A DNA stretch of 16,182 bases from the UHGV virus genome UHGV-0039965; one strand, 5' to 3'. The position numbers and the translations under genes are program-made. Numbering within the stretch: position 1 is the first letter of the stretch; each line of letters begins with the position of its first letter. The notes under the pieces were generated by a model. It had not been told where the DNA came from. It searched no databases and worked only from the letters and a program-made list of their open reading frames with translations. Source of the DNA: a virus. Positions 1-16,182 of this stretch are shown here, piece after piece.

Positions 1-14
1 CAAAGCGAGGTAAA

Positions 15-41: not shown

Positions 42-49
42 AACACAAA

Positions 50-469: not shown

Positions 470-635
470 GTTTGAAAACTCCCAATATTAAAAATATGTC
501 AGCATCTAACGATAACAACGTTCAGCACCAGAGACTCTTCGTTCTCCGGCTTACGCCTAAAAATATCGCAGGTGCCGTTTGCAGTCGACATCTGTTAATA
601 CTAAATTCATACCGCCACCGGCTCGCCGAGCCCAT

Positions 636-1679: not shown

Positions 1680-1682
1680 TCA

Positions 1683-2068: not shown

Positions 2069-2497
2069 TTAATCTAGCGAAGCTCCATAATATTCGAGCG
2101 TGAGTGAAAAGTCCTGCGATTTAGGTGTTCCGCCCATCAAAAAGCTGTTTTGCGTTTCAGTTAGTTCTCGCAGCACCCAGTACCCTTTCACCTCCCCGGT
2201 CCCCAGCACTAGCTGCTGGGGTTCTCCCGTGTTCCCGAGCGCTCGCAAATCTGTCAACAGGCCGACGCCGCACCCGTCAAGAAATAAAGCGTTTATCTTT
2301 CCATCGATAGTAATTGTGGGGTTCGGTCGTCCGGTTATCTGCAACGCGTCGTTTTTCCCGAATCGTGTTTGCTGAGCCCAGCGCCAGGCGTCACTACGTT
2401 GCAGTTTGTTGTACGCTACTGTTGATATAGCAAAAATGAAATCACCCAGGCCGAGCATGATATCCTCAGCACCGTTTATTGCATCACTCATTGTCAC
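2069..2497 (-). CDS. Phage tail protein U (P2 gpU-like)
   Basis: 142-aa ORF; N-terminus ...IMLGLGDFIFAISTVAYNKLQRSDAWRW... resembles gpU. Its start overlaps the tape-measure stop by 4 nt. Confidence 0.85.
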   Translation of the reverse strand: MTMSDAINGAEDIMLGLGDFIFAISTVAYNKLQRSDAWRWAQQTRFGKNDALQITGRPNPTITIDGKINALFLDGCGVGLLTDLRALGNTGEPQQLVLGTGEVKGYWVLRELTETQNSFLMGGTPKSQDFSLTLEYYGASLD

Positions 2498-4134
2498 CCC
2501 GCCGCCGCTGGTTTATCAAACATCGCGCCACGATTGTACGAACTCGCAGCCTGTCTCAGTCCATCGAGCACCCCCGACGCTGCAGATTGTTGTATTGACT
2601 GCGGATCTGTCGCACCGACAATATTGATTTCGATTTTATTGTTTTGCTCCGGCGCAGGTGTCGAGACTGCCTGCTTCAACGTATCAATATTTAACGTCGA
2701 CGAATCCAGTGCTGCAGGCGCGGTATTTTTATTTACCATCCCGGATAATGGATTAACAAACGCGAGCATTGATTCTGCCTGAGATTTTGCCTGTTCTTGC
2801 CGTTCTGGATGCCGCATATTTTCGACAGCCTCTTCGGCTTTTGCCTTCGCAATATTATCAGCAGTCAATCCAGCGTTCGGTGAATATTTACCTCCCGAAT
2901 CCATAAACTCTTGATATGCCCGATTATATTCGTCATTATAAGTTTTCTGTTCTTCATCTGATTTTTCATCCGGAATAAGCCACTCCAGTTTCTTTACGAC
3001 AGCCCATATAATCTTCCCGAATTTGACGCAACCTTCTCCAAAATTGACGATGCCATCCCACATTTTTTTCATATTTTCTGGTTTTACCCACTCAGTAATT
3101 GTGCTGACAAAACCACCCTGATTATCCTTAAACCAGGATGTAAATGTTTCACGTACTGAGTCAAACGTCGGCGCGAGTTCCCCCCCGATTTTACCGAGTG
3201 TATCTGCAAGTCCCGACGTAATAGAGCCCCACAGATTTGTCACTGATACATGCGCACGCGCCGCCCCTTCCGCACCCTCTTTTGTTAACAAATTCGACTT
3301 TTGCGCGTCAGACATTGTCTGTTCCCAGCTTTTACCCGTCGCCTTCATATACGTCATGATCTTATTAGCCTCGCCCCCCATGAGCTGGTCAGCGAGGCTC
3401 GCCGCTTGCTTCTCATCTTTCATTTCAGAGATGCGACGCATAACCTCATTAAACTGTTTTTCCCGATCCCAGCCAGCCATTCGTTTTTTCGTCAGGCCAA
3501 TTTGAAATAACATGGGATTCAGGCTTTTTTCGTTTCCGATTTCGCCGATTTTATTTGTAAGTTCTTCAGACAAATCCCCGATATTTTCGCCGTTCAGGCC
3601 CGCGGCTTTACCAATATTTTCCCACGCAGCGTATTTTTCGACGCCAACGCCGTAGGACTTCGCCAGACCGAGTTTTTCTGACGTCTCTGCATTCATTGCC
3701 AGCGCACCAGCTGCAGCACCGCCAATGAGCCCTGCCGCGCCAAGTGTCCCCCATTTGATACCCCGCCCCGTAGCCCTCACCGCACCTGCGGCGGCTCGTC
3801 CGCCCCATTTTGCAGCTCCTTTTGCGCGACCCGTCCACTTCTCCAGCTGCTGTTTTTTAGCAAGTTGAGTATTCAGCGCCTCCTGGTCCTGCGTTGTCGC
3901 TTTTATCCGACGGTCCAGCTTTTGATACTGAGCAGATAAATCAGAAACGTCTTTACCTGCCAGTTTCATTGCTGCGATTTTGTCTTTTAATTTATCCTGA
4001 CTTTTCGTTAATTTCCCGACAGTAGACGACGTCTGCCGAATCGCATCATTGAGTTCTGTTGTACCGCGACGAAACGACGGGTCTATTCGCCCACCGAATA
4101 CAACCTGCGTTTTAAAGTTTTGAGAAATAGCCAT
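2494..4134 (-). CDS. Tail tape measure protein (P2 gpT-like)
   Basis: 546-aa ORF with an N-terminal coiled-coil-like K/Q/E-rich region, a Gly/Ala-rich hydrophobic stretch (GAAKWGGRAAAGAVRATG...GAAGLIGGAAAGALA) and a long mixed C-terminal region. It lies between the E chaperone and U. Confidence 0.85.
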   Translation of the reverse strand: MAISQNFKTQVVFGGRIDPSFRRGTTELNDAIRQTSSTVGKLTKSQDKLKDKIAAMKLAGKDVSDLSAQYQKLDRRIKATTQDQEALNTQLAKKQQLEKWTGRAKGAAKWGGRAAAGAVRATGRGIKWGTLGAAGLIGGAAAGALAMNAETSEKLGLAKSYGVGVEKYAAWENIGKAAGLNGENIGDLSEELTNKIGEIGNEKSLNPMLFQIGLTKKRMAGWDREKQFNEVMRRISEMKDEKQAASLADQLMGGEANKIMTYMKATGKSWEQTMSDAQKSNLLTKEGAEGAARAHVSVTNLWGSITSGLADTLGKIGGELAPTFDSVRETFTSWFKDNQGGFVSTITEWVKPENMKKMWDGIVNFGEGCVKFGKIIWAVVKKLEWLIPDEKSDEEQKTYNDEYNRAYQEFMDSGGKYSPNAGLTADNIAKAKAEEAVENMRHPERQEQAKSQAESMLAFVNPLSGMVNKNTAPAALDSSTLNIDTLKQAVSTPAPEQNNKIEINIVGATDPQSIQQSAASGVLDGLRQAASSYNRGAMFDKPAAAG

Positions 4135-4524
4135 CGATTTTCATGACCTCGTTTACATAGAAATTAAAAACCCGGTACGGCAGGTCCATTTGCGTATCGG
4201 GCGGGATGGCAAGTTTTTTCGCAATAAACGGAATCAGAATAACTATATCTGATGTCGGTCTTTCGGGGGCTTTACCAGTTCGTTAAACGCGGCCTCCATT
4301 TGATCGTAATCGCACGCAGGCAGTGCATATAAATCCTCACGCTCCAGATTTGCCAGGCGCGCCAGCATTGTCGCTGTCCGCTCTTCAAGACCACTTTTAT
4401 CGTTACTGAACATAATGCGGTCGCGTAATTTTGGTTCGCGAATAGTAATTGTATCGCGGCTCTCACCCTTAATAATAAACGGGCGAGAGAGCGTAATAGT
4501 CATACTGTCTAATAATGATTCCAT
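4112..4524 (-). CDS. Putative gpE+E' product made by a -1 ribosomal frameshift near the 3' end of the E gene
   Basis: The -1 frame is open for about 52 codons from the last ~10 codons of E, through the 108-bp E-T spacer, to a TAA at 4112-4114 inside the first codons of T. Predicted total is about 137 aa. No canonical X_XXY_YYZ heptamer; the only slip candidates are in GTAAAGCCCCCGAAAG at about 4261-4275. Confidence 0.35.
4243..4524 (-). CDS. Tail assembly chaperone (P2 gpE-like), 0-frame product
   Basis: 93-aa ORF between the tube gene and the tape measure, the position of gpE in P2-type tails. Confidence 0.75.
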   Translation of the reverse strand: MESLLDSMTITLSRPFIIKGESRDTITIREPKLRDRIMFSNDKSGLEERTATMLARLANLEREDLYALPACDYDQMEAAFNELVKPPKDRHQI

Positions 4525-4536
4525 TTTATTTGCCTT

Positions 4537-5049
4537 TTAATATACATGGAGAATACGAGCAACGCCCGCAAGAACGTCAACACCATTAATTACTCGTTTC
4601 ATTTTTGCAGGATGAATCTCGTAAATAACTTTTCCATTTTGAACTCGTTTATAATAGCTCGGCGCAATCGTTACTGATTGCCCAACTGCTGATTTTGAAT
4701 CAGTCCCCTGCGCGTCATCAGTAATCGCCGTAATAAGCCCCTCATATGTATCAATACGTTCAAAATTGACACCGTAATTGTCAGTATATGCACTTCGAAT
4801 TTCGAACCTTGTTTTAGCACCTGGTATTAATCCAAAATACCCCATCACACCAGAATCGGAGCCAGAGACTTTAAAACTGGCTGACATTTTCTCCATTCCT
4901 CCGTCCAGAGTGATAGCTGTATCCATCGCGCCTGTTTTAAACTCGTCTTCGATTATTTTCATATCGACTGGAGTATATTCAGTACAATTTAAAACCCGTT
5001 CGCCCTGCACGAATAGCGCAAACGCGCGGTAAGCGTTGCTGTCTGACAT
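4537..5049 (-). CDS. Tail tube protein (P2 FII-like)
   Basis: 170-aa ORF immediately downstream of the sheath gene; C-terminal ...KRVINGVDVLAGVARILHVY resembles the conserved C-terminus of FII-type tube proteins. Confidence 0.85.
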   Translation of the reverse strand: MSDSNAYRAFALFVQGERVLNCTEYTPVDMKIIEDEFKTGAMDTAITLDGGMEKMSASFKVSGSDSGVMGYFGLIPGAKTRFEIRSAYTDNYGVNFERIDTYEGLITAITDDAQGTDSKSAVGQSVTIAPSYYKRVQNGKVIYEIHPAKMKRVINGVDVLAGVARILHVY

Positions 5050-5066
5050 ATTTAATCTCCGAATTA

Positions 5067-6569
5067 TCAGGCTGCTTCTTTAAAAAGGGAGGCCAGTGCT
5101 TCAACTGTATAGTCATTATTAATGCGGTACATTAACGTAATTGTTTGTGCCGGAGATTTCGGACCAAAATCAACATTAATATAAAGATTACCCGCAGCCA
5201 GGCTTTCTTTTGTATTCAGCTCACTGTCTAACCACGCACGCCCTCCGTTAATCGCACCCTGCTCCTCTAATTTGTGCAGATATGCGTTTATCGACTCGAC
5301 AACGTCTGTTCCGAGGTGCAGGTCTATCGGACGAACAATAAAATCGGTCATCATTGCCCGGGCTATAGAATCCTCAATTACGTCAGCTGTTCGACGAACG
5401 CTCTCGAAAGACCATTGCGGGCTGAGGCTGCACAAATAGTTACCCCAGTGTCTGAACCCGTCATAGCGAATAATCGTGCTGACCTGGCTGGCATTCAGCA
5501 GGTTCGCTGTGCAGTTTGTCTCACCAATAATAAAATCGTCGACTTGTTCAAGCCCTGTAACTCCGTAGATATTCTGGTTCGATTTACTCCACCAGAATCC
5601 TTTTTCATTATCAATTCGGGCTCGTAAACCAGCAGCGATAGCTGAATACGGACGAGATAACCCACTGACATCACTCGTAGAATAAACGCGAGGTCGCAAC
5701 AACTCAGCGCGTCCGCCGAGTTTTTGCCTGCGATTCACAACGTCTGCAGGGGTAGCAGCGCGCGGAGAGTCGATATAACACACTCCCCGGAGTTTATTTG
5801 CAACCACTTCAAGCTGAGCCGCTATTTCGTCTCGTGCGCTGTAATCCGGCGCTATAATAATTCGCGGGGTAACTTCGTTAATTTGCGCTGACGTCAAAAG
5901 CGAATTAATTCCGGCGATAACATTTTCGCTCATATCAGCGTCGTCGCTACTCTCTACAACGCGAACAACAACGATTAATGCATCAGTCTGATTTAAAATA
6001 TCAGAAATAGCGGGGGGCAGAGTCCCGTATTTCCCGAGCAGGGCGGCTTTCTTCTGACTACCTGCAATTAATACAGGAGAATTAATCGGGAATGCGTCAT
6101 CTGTTCCACCTGATAAATTTGTTGGTGGAAGACCAAATACTGTACCGGTTCCGGAATGCTCGCCACCAAAAGTTACATTAATCCACTCTCCGTCTGTTTT
6201 CCCCTCTCTATATTCCTGATTCTGATCATACATTTTGCCGGGGGTCATTCCCGGCTCCGTAATCATCGTTAATTTTTTTGTTCCGTCGGGCAGCGTGCTA
6301 TATCCTGGAGTGCAGGTTGCGCCCTCAACTGTCATATCTACAATTTCAACAACCCATTTATTCCCGTCGCTGCCCGGTGATACAGTTGAAAACTCAACGA
6401 GATTATCAGCCAGCGATGAGCCCCACGTTAATGATGCTCTCGTAGCCTCCGCGACGTTCGTCGCAGTACCAACAATCCCAATCACGGAAATATCTACTGT
6501 GTTGATCTCTTTTGTGCCGTCGTCGTATTCGAGCGTGCGAATACCGTGCAAAAAATTAGTTACGCTCAT
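5067..6569 (-). CDS. Contractile tail sheath protein (P2 FI-like)
   Basis: 500-aa ORF. The segment LRARIDNEKGFWWSKSNQNIYGVTGL ... STIIRYDGFRHWGN ... AGNLYINVDFGP matches the conserved sheath core as I recall it for FI-type proteins. Its start ATG overlaps the stop of the upstream -1 frame (ATGA). Confidence 0.9.
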   Translation of the reverse strand: MSVTNFLHGIRTLEYDDGTKEINTVDISVIGIVGTATNVAEATRASLTWGSSLADNLVEFSTVSPGSDGNKWVVEIVDMTVEGATCTPGYSTLPDGTKKLTMITEPGMTPGKMYDQNQEYREGKTDGEWINVTFGGEHSGTGTVFGLPPTNLSGGTDDAFPINSPVLIAGSQKKAALLGKYGTLPPAISDILNQTDALIVVVRVVESSDDADMSENVIAGINSLLTSAQINEVTPRIIIAPDYSARDEIAAQLEVVANKLRGVCYIDSPRAATPADVVNRRQKLGGRAELLRPRVYSTSDVSGLSRPYSAIAAGLRARIDNEKGFWWSKSNQNIYGVTGLEQVDDFIIGETNCTANLLNASQVSTIIRYDGFRHWGNYLCSLSPQWSFESVRRTADVIEDSIARAMMTDFIVRPIDLHLGTDVVESINAYLHKLEEQGAINGGRAWLDSELNTKESLAAGNLYINVDFGPKSPAQTITLMYRINNDYTVEALASLFKEAA

Positions 6570-6954
6570 TTTATTCCTTCTCTATTTTCACCAATTCGCG
6601 TCGCTATTGCTTCTTTAAGCTCGGCCAAGTTTTCGATTTGCGCGTCAGATGCGGTTCCGGCATCTACTGCACACTGAATTGAGAATGCCTCAATTGACAG
6701 ATCGCCAACAGTCCGTAATGTAGTCTGGAGTTTTTGCGTCTGCTCTTTTTTACAAATTTAGAAATGCTCCCATAATCCCCGCTCAGCGCTCTTTCATATA
6801 AAACCCTACCGTGTTCCTCGCAATCATTTTTCATTGCGGTGAATGGAATGTCGTTTCCAATCCCGTCAATATCGCAAATAATATTTATAGATAACCCATG
6901 CTCGTCATTAAAAACAGGGTTTGTTATTTTTCTAAATGAATCAACACTTATCAT
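6566..6954 (-). CDS. Full-length frameshift product (~131 aa) of the fibre-chaperone-like gene
   Basis: A -1 shift at the heptamer enters a frame open for 59 codons (EQTQKLQTTLRTVGDLSIEAFSIQCAVDAGTASDAQIENLAELKEAIATRIGENREGIK). That frame has no ATG or GTG of its own and ends in a TGA overlapping the sheath ATG. Confidence 0.45.
6664..6954 (-). CDS. Fibre-chaperone-like protein, 0-frame product (96 aa) of a gene carrying a -1 frameshift site
   Basis: ORF starting in a TAATG overlap with the tail-fibre stop. The first ~72 aa look protein-like; the last ~26 aa after the A-run (SRRKNSRLHYGLLAICQLRHSQFSVQ) look like out-of-frame sequence. Confidence 0.55.
   Translation of the reverse strand: MISVDSFRKITNPVFNDEHGLSINIICDIDGIGNDIPFTAMKNDCEEHGRVLYERALSGDYGSISKFVKKSRRKNSRLHYGLLAICQLRHSQFSVQ
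6745..6751 (-). other. Canonical -1 slippery heptamer A_AAA_AAG (recoding signal or homopolymer frameshift hotspot)
   Basis: Minus-strand sequence GGGAGCATTTCTAAATTTGTA AAA AAG AGC: the 0-frame codons are GTA AAA AAG, so the heptamer is in the correct register, with a Shine-Dalgarno-like GGGAG 15 nt upstream. This resembles the E. coli dnaX frameshift cassette. Confidence 0.5.
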
Positions 6955-8165
6955 TACGCAATCCTAATAGCTAAAAAACAGGCAGTCCCAATATCACCGA
7001 CCCCGCCTGGTGAATACGCCATAGCTCGCCATGAGCCAACAAGGGGTGTGTCATAAAATGGTTTTGTGGCAATATCCGTGTTATATGAACCGGTATTATT
7101 TATACTAGCGTAATATAAATCACCTCCAGCCCATATGGAGCCCGGTAGTATTTGTGGTGCATGATTAATAGCGACAAGCGCATAAGTATTAACCGCGCCA
7201 ACAACACCTATTTCCGGTGATGGGTCCGGTGAAAGACTTATATCTATGTTGCCATTTTCATCCGGCGACTCCCCGTTAATCGTTTTAACCGGTTTAAGAT
7301 TAGCCTCATTCCAGTATTTATACGTCATTCCGCCACACAGTAATACCAGGCCATCATAGTGAACTCCGCGTAATCTATAAAAAACCTTCTGATTGTTTTC
7401 TCCACGGGTCGAAAAATCTAAATAATCGCCCGACACATCTGATAAACCAGCAAGTGAAAACAACGTCAAATCAGTGCCCGGTTTGTTTATATTTATTTGT
7501 TTTTTAGAGGATAAAACGTCTTCAAAAATCACATCATCTTTAAAAGTATTTGGATGAGTAAATGCATTACCCTTATCTCTATATGCAACGTCCCCATCTA
7601 TACCAATATTTTTCCGCGCAGCCTGCTGAGCAGTTTCACCATTTGCGGGAATTTCAGATAAGTTTTTACTTATCTGCAAATATTTTTTGTCAGCTTCCTC
7701 GGGAGTTACGTAGTTGTCATATACTACAACATTAACCGTAGATGTGCTGGACACCGCGAGTGTGTATTTATACGTGATTGAAATCAGCGCACCGTTGCTG
7801 TCCGTAGGTTTTAAAATGTCCGGCGAGCGCGCCACAGAGTACAGCTCGCCTTTATCTGTTAATATCCCCACCTCACGGATAGTATAGCCCCCAGTGTCTG
7901 GCGGTACGTAAAGTGTAAAGATAACCTGGTTACCGCTATTTTCTGCGGATTTAATATCCCCACGATACGTCTCGTGAATTAATGCAGTTCGTGCCGGGTC
8001 CGGTGTTACGTCGTCGTTTCCGTTTGCGTCGCCAATAACGAATTTATTCAGCACCACGGGTACACCCGATGCCAGCGCAGCGGCTTCAAGTTGCGCCCCC
8101 CGGTCTGTCAGTACCGCATAAACCTGGCTCGCGCTCGCTTTCAGATTTGATTTTAATTTAGCCAT
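6954..8165 (-). CDS. Tail fibre protein (P2 gpH-like N-terminal domain)
   Basis: 403-aa ORF; N-terminus ...VIGDANGNDDVTPDPARTALIHETYRGDI...YTIREVGILTDKGELYSVA follows the conserved N-terminal domain pattern of P2-type fibres, with a Ser/Thr/Asn/Gly-rich variable C-terminal part. It follows gpI with an 8-nt overlap. Confidence 0.8.
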   Translation of the reverse strand: MAKLKSNLKASASQVYAVLTDRGAQLEAAALASGVPVVLNKFVIGDANGNDDVTPDPARTALIHETYRGDIKSAENSGNQVIFTLYVPPDTGGYTIREVGILTDKGELYSVARSPDILKPTDSNGALISITYKYTLAVSSTSTVNVVVYDNYVTPEEADKKYLQISKNLSEIPANGETAQQAARKNIGIDGDVAYRDKGNAFTHPNTFKDDVIFEDVLSSKKQININKPGTDLTLFSLAGLSDVSGDYLDFSTRGENNQKVFYRLRGVHYDGLVLLCGGMTYKYWNEANLKPVKTINGESPDENGNIDISLSPDPSPEIGVVGAVNTYALVAINHAPQILPGSIWAGGDLYYASINNTGSYNTDIATKPFYDTPLVGSWRAMAYSPGGVGDIGTACFLAIRIA

Positions 8166-8784
8166 TAGGTCCTATCTCCACTAACAAACTCACAATTGGC
8201 GAGCCTGATATATATAGCCCGCCGTTAATTTTTACACCGCCGTCGCCGTCTGCTGGGATATTTACGCCTATTTTCGCGTAAGGCGCACCAGCTATAAAAA
8301 ATTCACCATCGACACCCGTTTCAAAATTTATTTCTTTTAATAAGGAACGGCAATTTTTTGCATCAAATATTTGTGCAATAAAGGTATTCAATAGTTCTAA
8401 ATCTAACCCTATACTTTTTAGCAGATATATTTTAATTGCGAATGTATACGGGTCGTCCCTGGGCGTGGCTTCAAACCACTCTCTCATTTTGCTCTCAAAT
8501 CCCACCGTTAATAATGCTCGTTCGACGGCACCACGCGTGCCGCGATGTTTATTTTGCCAGGCTGCGGCCTTAATAATTTCGCGTTTTTGCTGCTCGCTCC
8601 AGTCGGGGTTCCAGTAGGTGACCGCGTACTCCCACGCCAGCCACGGCAACAGATTTGCAGGGCACAAATCGGGATTTTTAATAATTCGAATATCGCCAGG
8701 CAGATCGCCGACGTGAGATAAAACAACCTCAAGCGCCCTCTCAGGGGTTATTGCGTTCGGAGGCAGTACGCTTTGACTTGTCAT
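8158..8784 (-). CDS. Baseplate protein I (P2 gpI-like)
   Basis: 208-aa ORF; the motif NPDLCPANLLPWLAWEYAV closely matches the gpI signature as I recall it (NPDTCPANLLPWLAWAFSV). Confidence 0.9.
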   Translation of the reverse strand: MTSQSVLPPNAITPERALEVVLSHVGDLPGDIRIIKNPDLCPANLLPWLAWEYAVTYWNPDWSEQQKREIIKAAAWQNKHRGTRGAVERALLTVGFESKMREWFEATPRDDPYTFAIKIYLLKSIGLDLELLNTFIAQIFDAKNCRSLLKEINFETGVDGEFFIAGAPYAKIGVNIPADGDGGVKINGGLYISGSPIVSLLVEIGPNG

Positions 8785-8786
8785 GG

Positions 8787-9707
8787 CTACCCCATTTGCA
8801 CGCTGAGTTTGATTTCTGTGCAGTACGGAGCCTGTCCGACGCCAGCAATCACATCCTCTGTTGGCGATATCAGAATCACACGCTCCGTTCCGTCACGATG
8901 TATCGCGTCGTAAATTCCTGACAGGGCTGCTGTCGCCCCGATTTTATGTTGTGTAGCCACGTATATAGCTAAATCGCTTTGAGCACCGTTGAGCAACACG
9001 TTCTGATCGGGACCGAGCCCCGCTACGATAACGGCTTCAACCCGGTAATTCAGGTTCGACGCAGGTTTTACAGTCACGAAATCAGTCAGCGGTCGAGTAT
9101 CGTCAGGAGACAGGGCCGCATTCACTGTATTCAGTAGTGATTGAGGCGGAGTGCCGTCGCCGGTTCGCGACAAAACATACATATCGACGTATCCAGGCTG
9201 GGTCACCGGCGGGCCGTACGCCTGAGCTGACAGAACGTCGGGATCACTCGACAGCGCGAAATAGTTATAGGCGTTCGTACTGCCGGCAGTATTCCGCGCG
9301 TACCATGATAGCTGTATGCGATGACGATACTCGTCGTCACTCTCGTAAACCCCCTCAGTCGGAGGAATTGCGTCAGGATTAGCTGGCGTTATCAACAGCC
9401 GCAGGCAGTCAAAATTAGCGCCGATCTGGTCGAGGTCACTCCCTTTTGCAAACGCGAGCAATACAGCGAGCATCCCCTGATTTACCCGAGCTGTAATAAT
9501 GATTTCTCTGTATGCAACTATTTCCAGCAGTTTAACGGCCGGGTCTGACTCCAGGAGTGCGTTAAATTGTGGATATAATATCTGCAATTCTGACAGTAGA
9601 CTGGATTTAACATCTGAAAATAATGGGGTTTTAACGAATGCTGGCGGCGGCAGCAGACTCATATCAATAGTTTTCACTATCGAATTCTGAACTGTTGATG
9701 TTATCAA
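8787..9707 (-). CDS. Baseplate protein J (P2 gpJ-like)
   Basis: 306-aa ORF between the W-like and I-like genes; size and position fit gpJ. Its start overlaps the W stop (ATGA). Confidence 0.85.
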   Translation of the reverse strand: MITSTVQNSIVKTIDMSLLPPPAFVKTPLFSDVKSSLLSELQILYPQFNALLESDPAVKLLEIVAYREIIITARVNQGMLAVLLAFAKGSDLDQIGANFDCLRLLITPANPDAIPPTEGVYESDDEYRHRIQLSWYARNTAGSTNAYNYFALSSDPDVLSAQAYGPPVTQPGYVDMYVLSRTGDGTPPQSLLNTVNAALSPDDTRPLTDFVTVKPASNLNYRVEAVIVAGLGPDQNVLLNGAQSDLAIYVATQHKIGATAALSGIYDAIHRDGTERVILISPTEDVIAGVGQAPYCTEIKLSVQMG

Positions 9708-10045
9708 AATATCAGTTCCATATTATTAAACTCTAATCGCTGTTGTGTTTCGATATCTGTTGCGATAATTAATATTGTTATTTTCCCGATGTCCACTGCT
9801 AACACATTTATTCTGTCAATTCTGACGCGTGGTTCCCAGCGTGCTATTGCTCCTGCACTTTCCATTATTATTCTCATAGCAAGCGACGGATCAGTGGGAT
9901 TATCAACGAGGTCAAATAATTTGCTGCCGTATTCCGGCAACATTACACGGGTTCCCAGCGGGGTCGTTAAAATATCAACGATAGACTGACAAATGTGATC
10001 AGTCCCCGATAAAGGCTTACCGGTGTTACGGTCCATTCCAAGCAT
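9704..10045 (-). CDS. Baseplate protein W (gpW/gp25-like)
   Basis: ORF between V and J. I place the start at the ATG at 10043-10045 (MLGMDRNTGKPLSGTDHICQSIVDIL..., 113 aa), 3 nt after the V stop. The longest ORF runs to 10093 but would overlap V by 46 nt. Confidence 0.8.
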   Translation of the reverse strand: MLGMDRNTGKPLSGTDHICQSIVDILTTPLGTRVMLPEYGSKLFDLVDNPTDPSLAMRIIMESAGAIARWEPRVRIDRINVLAVDIGKITILIIATDIETQQRLEFNNMELIF

Positions 10046-10047
10046 AT

Positions 10048-10950
10048 TTACGCCATTGGTTGGTTCGGTTGTTGTGTTTCCCCGTCCGGACATATATGAG
10101 TGTGTCCGTTGTACGTTGTGCGGACCTCAGTCATTGTGCCTTGTCGGTCCTGCACCTCTTGCCCTGCTAACACACTACCGCGAGTTGTGATATTACCTGT
10201 TCCACCGTTATCTCCAGTGACAGAAATATCGTTACGGAATGTCGCTAATTTATCTACTACTAATGTCTCGGTAATATGCGTTGGACCAGCTAGTGTTATA
10301 CCACCCGGAGCCCACGCGCTGATTGTTTGAGCTGTCAGCGATATTCTGTTCGCAGCAGTAACACTAACAGAACTCGTTGCTATAACGTTCACTAAATCAG
10401 CATGTGCGTTAATTGTATCTGTCGCTGTGACATTAATAATATCAGCGTCTGCGTTAATTAATTTCCCACCATGGATATTAACTACATTTTCGCTATTAAT
10501 AGTAACATCTGCGCGTCCAAATATTTCTATTTCAGACTCACCGAGTATTTTTACCACGCCGTCCGGTACGCCCTGCCATGTCAGAGTGTGATTTTTTGTG
10601 TTATACGTCATCGTAGCCCCGTCACAGTATGCAGTGACATGATCATGGGGGTCATTGCTTGACGGAGCTTTGTCGTCAATGTGCAGCCCGAGCATAACTA
10701 CACCGTTCCGCGTATCCCCACCCTCAGAAACAACAGTAACGGGATCGCCCACTGATGGTGCGCTCCAGTCGACGCGTTCTGAGGTGGCGTGAGTAAACCA
10801 CTGCAGCCAGCCTGACTGGTGTTCGCCACCAAATGAGACTCGGCAGCGTGGAGGATTCATTTTAACTGCAGCTATCGTGCCGCGTTTAACTGCGTCACGC
10901 AGCCTGCGCGCGTTCTCCGCTGCAGCATATTCATCGTCCGATTGGGCCAT
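10048..10950 (-). CDS. Baseplate spike protein V (P2 gpV-like)
   Basis: 300 aa from the ATG at 10948-10950 (MAQSDDEY...), which has GAGGG 9-10 nt upstream. C-terminal ...YNGHTHICPDG carries the HxH motif typical of the metal-binding spike apex. The ORF track begins 5 codons earlier at 10965. Confidence 0.8.
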   Translation of the reverse strand: MAQSDDEYAAAENARRLRDAVKRGTIAAVKMNPPRCRVSFGGEHQSGWLQWFTHATSERVDWSAPSVGDPVTVVSEGGDTRNGVVMLGLHIDDKAPSSNDPHDHVTAYCDGATMTYNTKNHTLTWQGVPDGVVKILGESEIEIFGRADVTINSENVVNIHGGKLINADADIINVTATDTINAHADLVNVIATSSVSVTAANRISLTAQTISAWAPGGITLAGPTHITETLVVDKLATFRNDISVTGDNGGTGNITTRGSVLAGQEVQDRQGTMTEVRTTYNGHTHICPDGETQQPNQPMA

Positions 10951-11467
10951 AATAGTCGCCCTCATGTTCTGCGCCGATATCTGGTGCTATTCCGACGTAT
11001 ATATTTTTCAGGGTCCCCTGTGAGGGATAATCGAAAATATCTGGACCAACGCCTACAACCTGCGTGAACGACACGCACTGAACTGAATGCGAACCGACTG
11101 ACTGCCCGTTTTTAATCCAGTCGCACGGTTCCGCGTCGCTGAATTTTGCCGGTTTAGTTCCGGGACCGAACATTCGCCCATTGATCCAGCTCGTCATATA
11201 GAGCGCTGCATTCTGCGATTTCAGTCCGTACTGATCAGCTGCAAATTCACGCAGCAAATACAAATTACACGACAGCTCGACTGACTGAATTGAGCCTGGA
11301 ACCGATTCGTCACTCTGTGACCAGTTGCTGATTTCCAGGAACAGAGCTGGCGTTTCAAATCCAGCCGGAATTTCCGGATAAATTCCGAATGTTTTGATGA
11401 ACGGTATTTGTAAAACCGCGCCTTTAACGCGATCAAGATATTCGTCAAATGCATCCAGTCCGCTCAT
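10931..11467 (-). CDS. Tail-module protein of unknown identity, in the position of the P2 tail completion proteins (R/S)
   Basis: 178-aa ORF translationally coupled to the upstream ORF (ATGA overlap) and overlapping the V start. Assignment is by position only. Confidence 0.5.
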   Translation of the reverse strand: MSGLDAFDEYLDRVKGAVLQIPFIKTFGIYPEIPAGFETPALFLEISNWSQSDESVPGSIQSVELSCNLYLLREFAADQYGLKSQNAALYMTSWINGRMFGPGTKPAKFSDAEPCDWIKNGQSVGSHSVQCVSFTQVVGVGPDIFDYPSQGTLKNIYVGIAPDIGAEHEGDYYGPIGR

Positions 11468-11766
11468 AATCGTTTACCTGTTTTTGGGTCTACGTGGACA
11501 TTACCTTTCACGCGACCGCGCAAATCTTTCTCAAAAAAGCCCATAAAAACAGGGCCAATGTTTTCAAAAATATAATCATCGATAGCATCCTCCAGCGCGT
11601 CGTGCACAGGTACGCGAGCCTCTTCGATTCCTCCGCGATCCAGTCGAATCCAGACACTTTTCGCACCGTAGCGTTTCGCTACGAATGAATCGGGCCAACT
11701 CATCATCGCCAGCCCTGCACTTTTGGGTGTAAAAGTTGCCCCTCTAGCGCCTTTTTTGGTTTTCAA
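11464..11766 (-). pseudogene. Possible 5'-truncated remnant of a tail-module gene
   Basis: The track's 100-aa ORF begins at a TTG. The frame stays open about 40 codons further upstream with no ATG or GTG; the first ATGs are internal (MMSWPD...). It sits at the edge of a 336-bp non-coding gap. Confidence 0.4.
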
Positions 11767-12102
11767 AAACAGGCCGGTCTCAAGATCGCGAGGCTGTTTT
11801 TGCCTCCGTGGATTTTGTAATCGCCCCTTTAGCTCAGATACCCGGAAATCATTCAGACCGTACCAGAGCTTGGCGCTGCTCAGGTCCGTGGTAACTCCAG
11901 TTTATCGCCAAACATGTCCTTTCCCTCCGGGAAACCAATGATATTGACGATATTACACCCACAACGATTCGTTTTACGTCACTCCGCAATCACCATACAT
12001 ACGTACCAATCCGTACATTCCCACCACAAAAATGGCATTCGGCGGGCACTGGTAATGGATTTTTAACGTGTGCTATTGCCTTGCGACGTATTTTCAACTC
12101 AC

Positions 12103-12327
12103 TCATACAGCCTCCCTGCTCTCAAATGGGCGAATATTGGTTGGTTCTCCACACGGAATAGCCCAACCCAGCCAGGTAAATATTTTCAGGTCACACATCG
12201 CGTCATACCGTTCGCCAGGATTCACATCCACCATGCTGCAGGCAATTTCATATTGTTCACCATTATCAGTCAGTGCGATCTGGTCATTAATAAACCGGGG
12301 CACAAATGCCAGAAAAAGTTCTTTCAT
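12103..12327 (-). CDS. Hypothetical small protein (74 aa)
   Basis: Last gene of a four-gene run with overlapping stop/start codons. No family recognised. Confidence 0.4.
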   Translation of the reverse strand: MKELFLAFVPRFINDQIALTDNGEQYEIACSMVDVNPGERYDAMCDLKIFTWLGWAIPCGEPTNIRPFESREAV

Positions 12328-12635
12328 GAAATCCTCCGCTCAAAATAAACATACTGATTCACCGCACCGATCGACATTTCGAGTTTTTCCGCGATATCCT
12401 GGCGATTAATACCCGACTGATGTAATTCCCTTGCCAGCTCGATATCCTCCTGGCGGTATTTCACTGACTGGTGATAATTACCCCGCAGATACATACAGAT
12501 TTTCAACTCGCGCGCTTTTGTGCGTACCGCAGCACCGGTTCTTCCAATAAGCTGCCCTATACGTTCAACTATCATGCTGCCCGCACATTGTTTGATGATT
12601 ACGACTTCCGCACGCACCCACCGTTTGTATTTCAT
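12324..12635 (-). CDS. Small putative DNA-binding protein with two helix-turn-helix-like segments
   Basis: 103 aa; segments IVERIGQLIGRTGAAVRTKAREL and INRQDIAEKLEMSIGAVNQYV look like HTH motifs. Coupled by ATGA overlaps to both neighbours. A regulatory role is inferred, not demonstrated. Confidence 0.45.
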   Translation of the reverse strand: MKYKRWVRAEVVIIKQCAGSMIVERIGQLIGRTGAAVRTKARELKICMYLRGNYHQSVKYRQEDIELARELHQSGINRQDIAEKLEMSIGAVNQYVYFERRIS

Positions 12636-12868
12636 TGCTCCATCCCCCCTCTCCAGTAGTTCAGACGCTCTCTGAAAAATTCCCGGTACGTATCCGGCGT
12701 CATTCCGATTTGCTCAATCACGCTTCCCCTCGGAATACGTTTCTCAAAGAGTTGGCGGATCAGCGTCGCCGCTCGCATGTCGTAGTGCTCTTTAAGCAGG
12801 TATTCCTGAGGCCATTTGGCGCGGTTGTGTGGTAAGCCGGGCGGCAGGTAATCTGATTGCCCTGCCAT
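12632..12868 (-). CDS. Hypothetical small protein (78 aa)
   Basis: ORF coupled to both neighbours; basic and aromatic-rich. No family recognised. Confidence 0.4.
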   Translation of the reverse strand: MAGQSDYLPPGLPHNRAKWPQEYLLKEHYDMRAATLIRQLFEKRIPRGSVIEQIGMTPDTYREFFRERLNYWRGGMEQ

Positions 12869-12869
12869 A

Positions 12870-13280
12870 TCACGTCCCTTTCTTTGCTATCGGAGTGATG
12901 GAACTCAGCAGCAGGCGACAGCGACCGGGCGCGCCAATGCGCTGTCCGGTTATCTTGTCGTAAGTTTCATGCGGTGAGGCACACCAGGTTGTCGCTGTTT
13001 CGTGGAGTTTCACTTGCCGCTCACCATTTCTGCGAATCGCGATCCCGATGTGCGTTTTACCCTTACATTTCACTGCTGGCGCTGCGGCTACGGATGCCTG
13101 ACGGGCAGGCTGAGCTGGTGTTGAAAAATTGCCTGCTTTGGGTCTTGGTACAAAAACCGCACGAGTGCGCGCACGTGGCCCGGCGTTCATATTCCACAAA
13201 ATGACGTCGAGATAGTTTTTACCGTCGTCTATGTGTCCTTTGTCCGACGGGTACTCTAATTTGCCTGAAATGGTGGTCAT
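12870..13280 (-). CDS. Hypothetical protein (136 aa) downstream of the helicase
   Basis: ORF 38 bp downstream of the helicase stop, same strand. It occupies the position of lambdoid nin-region genes. No family recognised. Confidence 0.45.
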   Translation of the reverse strand: MTTISGKLEYPSDKGHIDDGKNYLDVILWNMNAGPRARTRAVFVPRPKAGNFSTPAQPARQASVAAAPAVKCKGKTHIGIAIRRNGERQVKLHETATTWCASPHETYDKITGQRIGAPGRCRLLLSSITPIAKKGT

Positions 13281-13318
13281 TGGTCTTTCCTCGGTTATTT
13301 CACGCTGGTCATGCGTGG

Positions 13319-14710
13319 TTAAAATGGGTCCGTATTAAAGTTTTTGTTTGAATACCGTTTTTCACGTTTTCTCGGTTGCTCTGCCTCCTTCTGGATGCGT
13401 AATTTTTCGCGTGCTACGTGTTGATCAACTGGCAGGAAATGCCCATTCCGGAATTCCTGATAAATAATTTCACCTGCCCCGCCAGAACGGTTTTTACCGA
13501 TAATCACCTCGGCGATACCCTTTGCAGGTGAATCAGGTGTGTAAACTTCATCGCGGTACAAAAACAAAATGCTGTCAGCGTCCTGCTCAACACTGCCGGA
13601 ATCGCGCAGGTCCGACATCACCGGGCGACGCTGGCCAGCAGGTCGAGAATCCACCTGGCGGGAAAGCTGGCTAAGAGCAAAAACAGGGGTATGCAGACGC
13701 ATGGCCATAGTCTTCATGTTGCGGGAGATATGCCCGACAGCGAGATCGTGGCGCTCGGCCTTCGGTTTTTTGATCAGGCCCATGTAATCAACACCAATCA
13801 ACTTCAGGTGCGGATAACGGCGTTTATGAGTCTCTGCAATGGCGCGGATCTGCTCAATCGTCAAATCAGTGGCATCAACAATCCAGATATCGCGATCCTG
13901 CATGATTGCAAGCGCGGCGGTTAATCTGGTCAAATCCTCATCGTCCATTTCTTTTGGATTACGCAGACGCGACGTGGACATATTCCCAGCCCCGGCAACG
14001 GTACGTTCAACAATCTGCTGAGCGCCCATTTCCATGCTGAAAAACAGTGCGCCGCCGCCATCTGCGGTAACGCCATCGATAATCTTCAGGGTAAATTCCG
14101 TTTTCCCCATGCCTGGACGACCGGCAACCACAACAAGGTCGGTCATGTTGATACCGCCCAGGGCGACATCCAGATCCTCGACTCCGGTTTTCAGCATCAT
14201 TTCCTGCGCGTCGCCAGACATCCGTTTATCAACGGTGTCAATGTAGAGCGGTAACAGCTCTTTGATGTGTACCGGCTGGACTGTGCCGGTAGCGGCGCTC
14301 ATATCCAGCACCTGAGCAACATGAGATTCAATAACCTCATCACGCTGACTCTGGTTTACAGCGTTACGGATACCATCCGCGCCAGATTGCAACAATGCCG
14401 CCATTTTGCGGCTCCGCCATGCCCGCACCATTTTCCCGGCATAGCCTTTCAGATTCGGTACCGTTGCCGGGATCCGGGATATTTGAGACAGATCCGCAAG
14501 GCTGGAACCGCCCAGCGCTTCGCTGATAAACAACATGTCGATCATGCCGTTCGCCAGTGCCTGCTTTTTGATTTCGCTGAAAGCGCGACGGTGAAACACG
14601 ATGCTGAAGGCTTCCTCCGGAGTAGTGGCAATCACATCAAACGCGTCAGGCGTCGCGCCACCGTTAATCAGACCAGCGAGAACGATCGCTTCCAGTTCTT
14701 CTGGATTCAT
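13319..14710 (-). CDS. Replicative DNA helicase, DnaB family (phage-type)
   Basis: 463 aa with Walker A GRPGMGKT, Walker B-like IWIVDATD, and C-terminal DnaB-like motifs (SQLSRQVDSR, DLRDSGSVEQDADSI, VIIGKNRSGGAGEI). Start is coupled to the upstream ORF stop. Confidence 0.9.
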   Translation of the reverse strand: MNPEELEAIVLAGLINGGATPDAFDVIATTPEEAFSIVFHRRAFSEIKKQALANGMIDMLFISEALGGSSLADLSQISRIPATVPNLKGYAGKMVRAWRSRKMAALLQSGADGIRNAVNQSQRDEVIESHVAQVLDMSAATGTVQPVHIKELLPLYIDTVDKRMSGDAQEMMLKTGVEDLDVALGGINMTDLVVVAGRPGMGKTEFTLKIIDGVTADGGGALFFSMEMGAQQIVERTVAGAGNMSTSRLRNPKEMDDEDLTRLTAALAIMQDRDIWIVDATDLTIEQIRAIAETHKRRYPHLKLIGVDYMGLIKKPKAERHDLAVGHISRNMKTMAMRLHTPVFALSQLSRQVDSRPAGQRRPVMSDLRDSGSVEQDADSILFLYRDEVYTPDSPAKGIAEVIIGKNRSGGAGEIIYQEFRNGHFLPVDQHVAREKLRIQKEAEQPRKREKRYSNKNFNTDPF

Positions 14711-15183
14711 AATGCCCCTTCCCTGGTTTTACGCAGTGTTTCTGGCTTCATCAGGTAATCAAACCCTGCCCGCCAGCCGGTGCGATATTCGCCGCCGAAA
14801 TAGAAGTCTGGGGCGTTATCGCGGAATTTTTCGAAGTAGCCGATAAATGCGCCAAGAGTTTGCGTGCGCATATGTGCCAGCAGGCGCAGGATTGCCCGAC
14901 GGCGGTCAGTATCAATTTCAGCTATAGGTAGCAGGTCGCCCAGAATCTCGTTGTAGCCCTTCACAACTTCAGCAGGGTCAACGGCAGCCTCAGCAGTGGC
15001 CCACGTCTCAGCGTCAGCCAGGTATCCGTCAAACCGGTTTACGCGGCAAATGTTCGCAGGTTTCGGAACGCTTCCGCTACGACGGCGCCATGTCGCAATA
15101 ACCCAACGAATTACTAACTGAATCTCAGCCACGCTGTACCTATGTGAAATGCACCACACCATGAAAGTGAGAGTCTGGTACAT
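14707..15183 (-). pseudogene. C-terminal remnant of a phage replication initiator (O-like) gene
   Basis: Only about 130-145 aa of plausible protein, ending in a helicase-coupled C-terminal region (...FYFGGEYRTGWRAGFDYLMKPETLRKTREGAL). No N-terminal DNA-binding domain. The first ~12 codons of the track ORF are antisense to the plus-strand ORF at 15149 and probably not real. Confidence 0.55.
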
Positions 15184-15598
15184 ATTGAATGGGGTGCGCG
15201 GCGAGTCTGCGGCTTACGGTTGCACTCCGTACATCTACGATACTAGACATGGACCAACAAGCGACGGCGAAGCGCCGAAGAAATCCTGGACGGATGCTGT
15301 TAAGAAAGCGCTATCCCCTCTCGGATTCAGCGCCGATATTTTCATGGGCCTGTACGACAATCCGGAATACCGCCAGAGGAATAAAGCTGAGTTTGATATC
15401 AAGAATGCCAGCGAGAATGCGGAAGATGCTACCCGTCTTCGTAAGGAACTGGATGAGAAGCTGATCAACGTTGCCAATACGCTGGCCGCCGCGGTAACCA
15501 CCAACGAAGTAAACAAGGTATTTGGCCTCATCGCCCGCGAAGTGGATGTACACCGAAAAGCAGCAGAAGCCAAAGGCGATAAAGAATATTCATCGTAA
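15149..15598 (+). pseudogene. N-terminally truncated Rad52/Erf-family single-strand annealing protein
   Basis: Contains the Rad52-superfamily signature KKSWTDAVKKALSPLGFSADIFMGLYD, preceded by VRVWYILNGVRGESAAYG (compare FVRV...DVGYG in Rad52), but starts too close to this motif for a complete N-terminal domain. Transcribed divergently from the O-like remnant. Confidence 0.5.
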
Positions 15599-15878
15599 AT
15601 TGAAAACTGCTAAAAACACATTTACTGATGCACAGGGGGCTATCCGGGTAATTATCGATAGCAAAGATAAGATCCCGGACGAGTATGAAGGCGTGTCACT
15701 TGTTGAAGTAGAAACGGTTATTACACCAAACAAGCGAGCCATTAAAGAAGTGATTGAATCTGCGGAGGCGGTTGCCGCAGAAATAATGGCGCGTGGAGAA
15801 ACACCACCTGCCGAATTACTTAACCCGGTACCAGGCGCACATCTGGAACGCGGCGAACGTTCGCTGAGGGTACGCTAA
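15546..15878 (+). CDS. Hypothetical protein (~110 aa from the ATG at 15546)
   Basis: The track ORF begins at a TTG at 15522; the first ATG is at 15546. It is in the +1 frame relative to the Erf-like ORF and overlaps its 3' end. Acidic and Ala-rich. Could be a separate gene or a frameshifted continuation. Confidence 0.4.
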   Translation: MYTEKQQKPKAIKNIHRKLKTAKNTFTDAQGAIRVIIDSKDKIPDEYEGVSLVEVETVITPNKRAIKEVIESAEAVAAEIMARGETPPAELLNPVPGAHLERGERSLRVR

Positions 15879-16132
15879 TGCTTAAACTCACATTAAAGCG
15901 TGGTGACGCGGTTCACCTGGTACTTGCCGATGGTACCAATGGCATTATTGAAGCACGGAGCCGCTGCGAACTTGGGCTACACCTGCCAGAAAACATTAAG
16001 GTCACGCGGGAGAAATCGGCATTCCCCCCACCAGAACTGATTACGCCTAAGGCAGCCTGGAAGAGAAGCAAGCAATTTCCGGGCATAAGAACCCACGACA
16101 GACAGCAGCATATGACCGAAAAGTTAAAGTAG
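15878..16132 (+). CDS. Small protein (84 aa) with CsrA-like N-terminal pattern
   Basis: Start overlaps the upstream stop (TAATG). In an ungapped comparison with E. coli CsrA, MLKLTLKRGD...ELGLHLPENIKVTREK matches MLILTRRVGE...RIGVNAPKEVSVHREE at M1, L2, L4, T5, G9, G33, P37, V42, R44 and E45. Compared by eye only. Confidence 0.35.
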   Translation: MLKLTLKRGDAVHLVLADGTNGIIEARSRCELGLHLPENIKVTREKSAFPPPELITPKAAWKRSKQFPGIRTHDRQQHMTEKLK

Positions 16133-16182
16133 TGCCCGTAGTTGGTGGCCAGAGAAAATGAATGATGATGCGTCCAGAGAAA

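What the first reader, a model, noticed from the sequence alone, without database searches (positions are those of the whole stretch)
11767..12102. Tail-only architecture: head, packaging and lysis modules are absent and a deletion scar lies upstream of the tail genes
A complete-looking P2-type tail module follows the replication genes with only four small genes and a 336-bp non-coding gap in between. The first tail-side ORF has no ATG and an upstream-open frame, consistent with 5' truncation. No terminase, portal, capsid, holin or endolysin is present. The element cannot make virions, but the tail module looks intact, so it could be a domesticated tailocin-like particle or simply a decaying prophage.
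Basis: inference. Interest (0 to 1): 0.65.

Follow-up and report, generated by a model that had tools for sequence, protein, structure and literature searches.

The report
Deletion scar in a decaying prophage
The 336-bp gap marks a 20-kb deletion that removed the lysis, packaging and head genes from a common E. coli prophage; it is one step in the ordinary erosion of a dead prophage, not evidence of a domesticated phage-tail weapon.

Summary
The window is a prophage remnant between tRNA-Leu (leuZ) and yecA in E. coli. Compared with a near-identical 43.7-kb prophage in strain Z0117EC0036, it lacks four blocks. The largest, 20,324 bp, joins at window 11885/11886 with 2 bp of microhomology. It removed the antiterminator Q, holins, endolysin, terminase, portal, protease, capsid, FI, FII and the first 86 codons of a 226-codon gpZ-like tail-completion gene. 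ORF 11464-11766 is the 3' part of that gene. Another deletion removed cI, cro and the N-terminus of RepO, and integrase survives only as its last 113 nt.

The tail module is not fully intact. A 1-bp deletion in an A-run (6745-6752) frameshifts the tail-fibre assembly gene.

The scar is one of three nested deletion alleles. Six of 5,426 complete E. coli genomes carry the other two: CEA601S has a smaller deletion and 19AR1724 a larger one that also removes the collar gene. No searched collection holds this exact junction. Tail and head modules co-occur in about 443 genomes each, so tail-only forms are rare and recent.

Best reading: a progressively eroding, non-inducible prophage. The retained genes match the pyocin R2 structural set, but the element has no lysis genes, regulators or recognisable promoter.

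The parts
11916..12102 (-). Native 187-bp intergenic spacer downstream of the 74-aa gene. It includes the GGAGG ribosome-binding site of the next gene, so this part of the gap is not itself a scar.
   Evidence: Collinear with intact prophages L009 and L018. Sequence read.
11886..11915 (-). First 10 codons (MFGDKLELPR) of a 73-aa gene (PHROG 340, function unknown). The rest of the gene is deleted.
   Evidence: The full gene is seen in L007 and L009. PHROG hit. Junction.
11885..11886 (.). Deletion junction with 2 bp of microhomology (TC on the + strand). It joins L018 position 11623 to 31948, so 20,324 bp are missing relative to the intact prophage and 3,987 bp relative to CEA601S.
11464..11885 (-). 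5'-truncated gpZ-like tail-completion / Neck1 gene. Codons 87-226 of 226 remain, with no start codon or ribosome-binding site. The listed ORF 11464-11766 is only its part downstream of an internal TTG.
   Evidence: A lambda gpZ family (PF06763) assignment for the ST131 homologue is given in PMC9205054 Table S5.
10931..11467 (-). 178-aa collar / tail-terminator homologue (pyocin R2 PA0615-like), intact.
   Evidence: PDB 6u5f 'Collar PA0615', E=0.019. PHROG 1072. PMC9205054 Table S5.
6954..10965 (-). Baseplate and fibre genes, all full length: gpV spike (10048-10965), gpW/gp25 (9704-10093), gpJ (8787-9707), gpI (8158-8784) and tail fibre (6954-8165).
   Evidence: Pfam and PHROG hits. Same lengths as in the intact relatives.
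6570..6954 (-). Tail-fibre assembly gene (129 aa in intact relatives, at the PA0621/gpG position), inactivated by a 1-bp deletion in an A-run (A7 to A6, window 6745-6752). The result is a 96-aa out-of-frame product.
   Evidence: NCBI's annotation pipeline (PGAP) calls no CDS here in CEA601S, 19AR1724 or 23AR1217.
636..6569 (-). Sheath (5067-6569), tube (4537-5049), assembly chaperone E (4243-4524), tape measure (2494-4134), gpU (2069-2497), gpX (1683-1907) and gpD hub (636-1679), all full length.
50..469 (-). 139-aa lipoprotein gene (PHROG 890), the last gene of the prophage before the att site and yecA.
12103..14710 (-). Surviving early-right genes: a DnaB-type helicase (13319-14710) and four small genes of 136, 78 (theta-like), 103 (helix-turn-helix) and 74 aa.
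14707..15138 (-). C-terminal fragment of the RepO replication initiator. The listed ORF 14707-15183 runs across a junction into unrelated sequence.
   Evidence: PHROG hits cover only the C-terminal part of the profiles. RefSeq pseudogene flag. Map.
15136..15138 (.). Junction of a 5,082-bp deletion (L018 3289-8370). It removed the exonuclease N-terminus, cI, cro, ydaT, a 74-aa gene and the RepO N-terminus. 3 bp of microhomology.
15139..16182 (+). Early-left debris: exonuclease C-terminal fragment (to 15597); 368-bp deletion junction at 15596/15597; Gp157 C-terminal fragment and a 60-aa gene (to 16050); 1,355-bp deletion junction at 16049/16050 that removed xis and most of integrase; last 113 nt of integrase (16051-16161).
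   Evidence: RefSeq pseudogene flags.

Best explanation
The region is a scar of illegitimate (microhomology-mediated) deletion inside a defective prophage that is being eroded step by step.

The ancestor was a 43.7-kb lambdoid myovirus with a lambda-type early region, lysis cassette and head, and a P2/pyocin-type contractile tail. It was integrated at tRNA-Leu (leuZ) next to yecA.

The lineage first lost most of integrase and xis, part of the early-left operon, and the cI-cro-RepO region. It also acquired a frameshift in the tail-fibre assembly gene. A central deletion, possibly widened in steps, then removed everything from codon 11 of a 73-aa gene to codon 86 of the gpZ-like tail-completion gene. 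That is 20.3 kb, holding Q, the late-promoter region, holins, endolysin, terminase, portal, protease and capsid.

What remains cannot excise, replicate, be induced, lyse the cell or package DNA. The tail genes survive only because deletion has not reached them yet. They have no recognisable promoter and are most likely silent or weakly read through.

Shown: the deletion map, the truncations, the frameshift and the population distribution. Inferred: the order of events and transcriptional silence.
For: 1. The window is collinear with the intact prophage L018 in five blocks at 99.94-100% identity, separated by four deletions of 1,355, 368, 5,082 and 20,324 bp. Each junction has 2-3 bp of microhomology.
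2. The truncated gene keeps exactly codons 87-226 and has no start.
3. All lysis, packaging and head genes of L018 fall inside the missing block.
4. There are three nested central alleles: L018 11742-28272 deleted in CEA601S-type (3 genomes), 11624-31947 in the window, and 9091-32853 in 19AR1724-type (3 genomes, collar and gpZ-like genes gone too).
5. All remnant carriers share the three outer deletions, the fibre-assembly frameshift and 4 SNPs. The window is identical over 10,980 bp to 19AR1724 and 23AR1217.
6. 0 of 5,426 complete E. coli genomes carry the window's junction. 443 genomes hold at least 80% of the tail block and 443 hold at least 80% of the lysis-head block.
7. No sigma-70-like site lies on the coding strand between 7381 and 16182. 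The window has 12 sites in all, against 23.2 +/- 5.0 in shuffles.
Against: - The retained gene set (collar, V, W, J, I, H, chaperone, sheath, tube, E, T, U, X, D) is the same set and order as the pyocin R2 structural genes PA0615-PA0628. The truncated gpZ-like gene has no counterpart in that cluster, so its loss alone would not prevent tail-like particle assembly.
- Apart from the frameshift, all tail ORFs are full length. With only 4 SNPs from the intact phage there is no power to test for relaxed selection.
- Expression was not measured, and the consensus promoter scan is weak evidence.
Confidence: 0.88

Rival explanations
1. Incipient or functional R-type tailocin. The deletion left a head-less, pyocin-like structural cluster that is still expressed, for example by read-through or a cryptic promoter. 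Its particles would be released with help from another prophage's lysis genes or by cell death.
For: - The retained genes equal the PA0615-PA0628 set in order. The collar homologue hits PDB 6u5f at E=0.019.
- Tantoso et al. 2022 map the ST131 homologue of this tail onto pyocin R2 and propose a tailocin role, as a hypothesis only.
- 13 of 14 structural ORFs are full length.
- No terminator-like site on the coding strand lies in the gap.
Against: - The fibre-assembly (PA0621-position) gene is frameshifted.
- The element has no holin, endolysin or spanin, no Q, no cI/cro or other regulator, and no promoter-like site upstream.
- The allele is absent from 5,426 genomes, one genome per bacterial/archaeal species (GTDB) and the metagenome contigs.
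- The sister genomes with identical tail DNA have also deleted the collar gene.
- Tail-only derivatives number about 6 against about 440 full prophages.
Confidence: 0.05
2. Assembly artefact. The 11885/11886 junction is a mis-join in the source assembly, and the real genome is CEA601S-like, with protease to FII still present.
For: - The junction was found in no other sequence.
- It coincides with a (G)AGACC site where several long-read assemblies of relatives carry single-base indels and where a contig from the Logan assemblies of public sequencing runs ends.
Against: - A same-strand join of two unique sequences 4 kb apart through 2 bp of microhomology is typical of a real deletion, not of an assembler error.
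- Two other independent nested deletions exist in finished genomes of the same lineage.
- The window's tail block is identical to that of the 19AR1724-type genomes, which lack the same region.
Confidence: 0.05
3. Deletion triggered by a restriction-enzyme break. A double-strand break at the GGTCTC/AGACC site that abuts the right endpoint would have started resection and end-joining.
For: The right endpoint lies 2 nt from one of only 8 GGTCTC/GAGACC sites in 48 kb.
Against: None of the other 11 endpoints of the six deletions lies near such a site. If the relevant motif is the 5-mer AGACC, chance proximity is not unusual. No restriction system was identified.
Confidence: 0.02

Closest known systems
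Full-length leuZ/yecA prophage of E. coli: strain Z0117EC0036 (NZ_CP098214.1, 2136850-2180630) and the homologous ST131 'prophage 5' / s2-ST131 of Tantoso et al. 2022 (PMC9205054)
   Same: Same integration site and same gene order. Identity to the Z0117EC0036 copy is 99.94-100% over all retained blocks. Identity to the tail region of four other full-length copies (L002-L005; strains and sequence types not determined) is 94.7-97.3%. ST131 strains such as EC958 carry the prophage's portal-protease junction at 100% identity. The gene order and domain families match Table S5 of the paper.
   Different: The window lacks 27.1 kb of the 43.7 kb: most of integrase, xis, the immunity region, Q, lysis, packaging and head genes, and the gpZ-like N-terminus. 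It also carries a frameshift in the fibre-assembly gene.
Remnants of the same prophage in E. coli CEA601S, GmF046 and OZ546938.1, and in 19AR1724, 23AR1217 and 24AR0180
   Same: They share the three outer deletions, the frameshift and the background SNPs.
   Different: The central deletion endpoints differ. CEA601S-type genomes keep protease to FII and a full gpZ-like gene. 19AR1724-type genomes have also lost the DnaB C-terminus, the four small genes, and the gpZ-like and collar genes.
R-type pyocin R2 of Pseudomonas aeruginosa (PA0615-PA0628; structure 6u5f)
   Same: Same order of contractile-tail structural genes, starting with the collar gene. No head genes.
   Different: The pyocin locus has its own regulators (PrtN/PrtR) and a holin/lysin cassette, and is conserved at a fixed locus (established knowledge). 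None of these holds here. Sequence similarity is remote (collar E=0.019).
Cryptic prophages of E. coli K-12 (e14, Rac, CP4-57 and others) as a class
   Same: Prophages inactivated by deletions, leaving truncated integrase and replication genes and partial structural modules (established knowledge).
   Different: Those are old and fixed across many strains. This remnant is very recent: it differs by about 4 SNPs from an intact copy and is confined to a handful of genomes.

Membership tests
Defective (cryptic) prophage remnant | Collinear homology to a full-length prophage at the same attachment site | tested here: met
   Five collinear blocks at 99.94-100% identity to L018, between tRNA-Leu and yecA.
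Defective (cryptic) prophage remnant | Loss or truncation of genes essential for the phage life cycle | tested here: met
   Integrase is reduced to 113 nt. xis, cI, cro, the RepO N-terminus, Q, the lysis genes, terminase, portal and capsid are deleted.
Defective (cryptic) prophage remnant | Flanking att direct repeats | tested here: inconclusive
   Repeats of about 125 bp are present in L001, L017, L018 and L019. They lie about 40 and about 170 bp outside the window, so they were not seen for the source genome itself.
R-type tailocin (pyocin R2-like) | Complete set of contractile-tail structural genes without head genes | tested here: inconclusive
   Thirteen full-length homologues in pyocin order and no head genes. 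The fibre-assembly gene is frameshifted.
R-type tailocin (pyocin R2-like) | Dedicated lysis cassette for release | tested here: not met
   The holins and endolysin of the parent phage (L018 22067-23403) lie inside the deleted block. None is present in the window.
R-type tailocin (pyocin R2-like) | Own regulatory circuit or promoter (for example SOS-responsive) | tested here: not met
   cI, cro, Q and the late-promoter region are deleted. No promoter-like site lies on the coding strand upstream of the tail genes (weak test).
R-type tailocin (pyocin R2-like) | Maintained across a lineage as a tail-only locus | tested here: not met
   This allele is in 0 of 5,426 genomes, and 6 of 5,426 carry sister remnants. 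443 genomes hold the tail block and 443 the head-lysis block.
R-type tailocin (pyocin R2-like) | Production of headless contractile particles with killing activity | not testable with these tools
   Needs induction, EM and killing assays.
P2-type contractile tail module | Pfam families of P2 tail genes in P2 order (V, W, J, I, H, sheath FI, tube FII, E, T, U, X, D) | tested here: met
   Phage_base_V, GPW_gp25, Baseplate_J, Tail_P2_I, Phage_tail_fib, Phage_sheath_1/1C, Phage_tube, Phage_TAC_7, Phage_P2_GpU and Phage_tail_X score above their cut-offs. Phage_GPD scores below its cut-off, but PHROG 52 matches at E=2.7e-94.

The most novel reading that the evidence does not exclude
The window catches a tailocin at birth. 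Successive deletions trimmed a lambdoid myovirus down to exactly the pyocin-R2-equivalent structural set, from collar to gpD. If that set is transcribed by read-through and released by a co-resident prophage's lysis genes, it could yield headless contractile particles. In that case the frameshifted fibre chaperone would have to be bypassed, for example by slippage in the A-run, or be dispensable.
Probability: 0.04. Interest if true: 0.6.

Novelty: new member of a known kind. Interest (0 to 1): 0.15.

Why it matters
This matters little beyond correct annotation. The region should be annotated as a non-inducible prophage remnant containing pseudogenes, not as a phage or a tailocin.

It has modest value as a dated example of prophage erosion. 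Three nested deletion alleles sit on an almost identical sequence background and can be compared base by base with an intact copy. Every junction uses 2-4 bp of microhomology.

It also bears on the published but untested suggestion that this prophage's tail acts as an ST131 'tailocin'. In the population sampled here, the tail is almost never kept without the head and lysis genes.

Tried and rejected
- **Exact-junction scans.** One genome per bacterial/archaeal species (GTDB) and the metagenome contigs gave 0 hits. The source of the window was not found.
- **Look-up of the 100-aa ORF.** It did not find the deletion. It returned full-length prophages in which the gpZ-like gene is split by single-base insertions at GAGACC sites. 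These are probably long-read errors at a methylated motif; this is my inference.
- **Logan contig L006.** It begins exactly at the junction base. I considered that it might carry the same deletion and rejected this: its tail allele is the 94.7-97.3% type, and the break fits the same error-prone motif.
- **Restriction-break hypothesis.** Only 1 of 12 deletion endpoints is near a GGTCTC/GAGACC site.
- **Family assignment of the 226-aa protein.** Pfam found nothing at E up to 1, and PDB sequence searches gave no hit. Its identity rests on PHROG 27 and on the PF06763 assignment in PMC9205054.
- **'Phage' records ON470596 and relatives.** These are prophage predictions that include yecA, not evidence of induced virions.
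- **dN/dS on the tail genes.** Not attempted, because 4 SNPs give no power.

Full report
**What is in the window.** All substantial genes lie on the minus strand. In transcription order they are:
- a C-terminal fragment of a RepO-type initiator;
- a DnaB-type helicase;
- four small genes of 136, 78, 103 and 74 aa;
- the 336-bp gap (11767-12102);
- a 100-aa ORF with a TTG start;
- a P2/pyocin-type contractile tail module: a 178-aa protein, gpV, gpW, gpJ, gpI, fibre, a 96-aa ORF, sheath, tube, chaperone E, tape measure, gpU, gpX and gpD;
- a lipoprotein gene.

Plus-strand fragments of an exonuclease, a Gp157-family protein and an integrase sit at the right end. No terminase, portal, capsid, holin or endolysin is encoded anywhere in the window.

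The 100-aa ORF matches only the C-terminal half of PHROG 27 ('tail completion or Neck1', profile positions 105-199 of 199). Its frame is open upstream to a stop five codons past position 11885. No Shine-Dalgarno sequence precedes its TTG.

**Mapping against relatives.**
- megablast against 5,426 complete E. coli genomes broke the query at window 11885/11886. No genome held both halves contiguously.
- Strain CEA601S (L001) matches window 1-11886 with 3 mismatches and 11885-16182 perfectly. It has 3,987 extra bases between the two halves. These encode an S49 protease (lambda C-like), a decoration protein, the major capsid protein, FI, an FII-type head-tail joining protein and the first 86 codons of a 226-aa tail-completion protein that covers the whole PHROG 27 profile.
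- A full-length, near-identical prophage sits in strain Z0117EC0036 (L018). It is 43.7 kb between ~125-bp att repeats, integrated at tRNA-Leu (leuZ) next to yecA.

Against L018, the window consists of five collinear blocks at 99.94-100% identity, separated by four deletions:

| Missing from L018 | Size | Window junction | What was removed |
|---|---|---|---|
| 649-2003 | 1,355 bp | 16049/16050 | most of integrase, xis |
| 2459-2826 | 368 bp | 15596/15597 | Gp157 N-terminal part and exonuclease C-terminal end (from the L018 gene coordinates) |
| 3289-8370 | 5,082 bp | 15136-15138 | exonuclease N-terminus, cI, cro, ydaT, RepO N-terminus |
| 11624-31947 | 20,324 bp | 11885/11886 | see next paragraph |

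The 20,324-bp deletion removed the rest of a 73-aa gene, an ORF6N gene, cargo genes, Q, two holins, the endolysin, both terminase subunits, gpW, portal, protease, decoration protein, capsid, FI, FII and 86 codons of the tail-completion gene. Every junction has 2-3 bp of microhomology, the signature of illegitimate recombination.

**Anatomy of the gap.** The gap has four parts:
- 12102-11916: the native 187-bp intergenic spacer after the 74-aa gene, including the GGAGG of the next gene.
- 11915-11886: the first 10 codons of the 73-aa gene (PHROG 340).
- 11885/11886: the junction.
- 11885-11767: codons 87-126 of the truncated tail-completion gene, which have no start.

**The tail module is not fully intact.** The 96-aa ORF (6664-6954) is the 129-aa tail-fibre assembly gene of the intact relatives, at the same position as P2 gpG and pyocin PA0621. 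A 1-bp deletion in an A-run shifts its frame. The same lesion is in CEA601S, 19AR1724 and 23AR1217, and NCBI's annotation pipeline (PGAP) calls no gene there. All other tail ORFs have the same lengths as in intact prophages.

**What the truncated gene is, and whether it matters.**
- The truncated 226-aa protein sits between the FII-type head-tail joining gene and the terminator-like 178-aa gene, which is where gpZ sits in lambda. Tantoso et al. assign the ST131 homologue to Minor_tail_Z, PF06763. My own Pfam and PDB searches found nothing.
- The 178-aa protein weakly matches the pyocin R2 collar PA0615 (PDB 6u5f, E=0.019), in agreement with the same paper.
- The R2 pyocin cluster starts at the collar gene and has no gpZ-like gene. 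Loss of the gpZ-like N-terminus therefore does not by itself rule out assembly of tail-like particles. I do not count it against the tailocin reading.

**Population context.**
- Six of 5,426 genomes share the three outer deletions.
- Three of them (CEA601S, GmF046, OZ546938.1) carry a smaller central deletion, L018 11742-28272, with 4 bp of microhomology. It leaves protease to FII and a complete gpZ-like gene.
- The other three (19AR1724, 23AR1217, 24AR0180) share those outer deletions. In the two whose loci I fetched (19AR1724 and 23AR1217), a larger central deletion, L018 9091-32853, also removes the DnaB C-terminus, the four small genes, the gpZ-like gene and the collar gene. The 24AR0180 locus was not fetched; I group it with them because it comes from the same collection and matches at near-identical genome coordinates.
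- The window's deletion is nested exactly between these two.
- All carriers share 4 SNPs and the frameshift relative to L018. The window is identical over 10,980 bp to 19AR1724 and 23AR1217, while CEA601S has three private SNPs. This fits stepwise widening of one scar, although independent deletions from a common ancestor cannot be excluded.
- In 19AR1724 and 23AR1217 the remnant is flanked directly by yecA and by tRNA-Leu, tRNA-Cys, tRNA-Gly and pgsA. No head or lysis genes are hiding outside the element. CEA601S has an unrelated P2-like prophage inserted next door.
- Across the collection, 443 genomes hold at least 80% of the tail block and 443 hold at least 80% of the lysis-terminase-head block. 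The tail is almost always part of a whole prophage.
- The window's junction was not found among one genome per bacterial/archaeal species (GTDB) or in metagenome contigs.

**Expression.** The native late promoter region and Q lie in the deleted block, and PR/PL and cI/cro lie in another. A consensus scan finds no sigma-70-like site on the coding strand between 7381 and 16182. Promoter-like sites are fewer than in shuffled sequence: 12 against 23.2 +/- 5.0. This is weak evidence, but it agrees with a promoterless array.

**Interpretation.**
- The scar belongs to an ordinary, very recent, progressively eroding prophage. The element cannot excise, replicate, be induced, lyse the cell or package DNA.
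- The tailocin idea has a published precedent for the intact ST131 homologue (Tantoso et al. 2022, PMC9205054). That proposal rests on sequence similarity only and concerns a complete prophage.
- Here the defining features of a tailocin locus were each tested and not met: a lysis cassette, a regulatory circuit and maintenance as a tail-only locus. The structural set is incomplete because of the frameshift. I put about 4-5% on the reading that this is a working or incipient tailocin.
- An assembly artefact is unlikely, about 5%. The junction has the same character as five other junctions in finished genomes of the lineage, and sister genomes lack the same region.

**Verdict.** Novelty is limited to a new deletion allele of a known prophage. 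Interest is low.

Noticed in passing
window 8785-8820 (gpI/gpJ boundary): A 36-nt stretch matches, at 100%, type I-E CRISPR arrays next to cas2e in many E. coli genomes. About 140 of the 583 genomes that matched the tail query did so only by a short stretch, and the three such rows listed were this CRISPR match. A second CRISPR match lies in the head region of the intact relative (L018 about 27948-27982). So E. coli CRISPR arrays carry spacers against this prophage family.
   Followed up: partly
window 6745-6752: A 1-bp deletion in an A-run (A7 to A6) frameshifts the tail-fibre assembly gene. All four remnant sequences compared share it (the window, CEA601S, 19AR1724 and 23AR1217); the intact prophages L018 and L002 do not.
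   Followed up: yes
L002-L005, positions about 9880 and 9990; L006 position 1; window 11885: Several chromosome assemblies of the intact prophage carry single-base indels exactly at GAGACC (which contains AGACC). These split the gpZ-like gene into 133-aa and 100-aa ORFs. A Logan contig (SRR33714351) starts at the same base. The pattern looks like systematic long-read error at a methylated motif. The window's deletion endpoint abuts one of these sites.
   Followed up: partly
window 14707-15183 and 15878-16132: Two listed ORFs are chimeras that read across deletion junctions. One is the RepO fragment plus 15 codons of antisense exonuclease sequence. The other is the 60-aa gene fused to the integrase remnant.
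   Followed up: yes
L018 21283-21954, 16156-16853 and 28296-29405: Even the 'intact' reference prophage has a Q gene with an internal stop, an IS1 insertion in the cargo region, and an S49 protease gene 198 bp shorter than in CEA601S and ST131-type copies. It may itself be defective.
   Followed up: no
L001 24569-41416: In CEA601S a separate P2-like prophage (integrase, replication endonuclease, portal, terminase, capsid) is inserted immediately beside the remnant's integrase fragment. It would supply lysis and tail functions in trans in that strain.
   Followed up: no
L007-L016, about 10.9-19 kb: The region between the 74-aa gene and Q in intact relatives is a variable cargo island. Contents include ORF6N, an LprI-like protein, GIY-YIG/HNH nucleases, GmrSD-like proteins, ImmA/IrrE and IS elements. 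It looks like a defence or moron hotspot.
   Followed up: no
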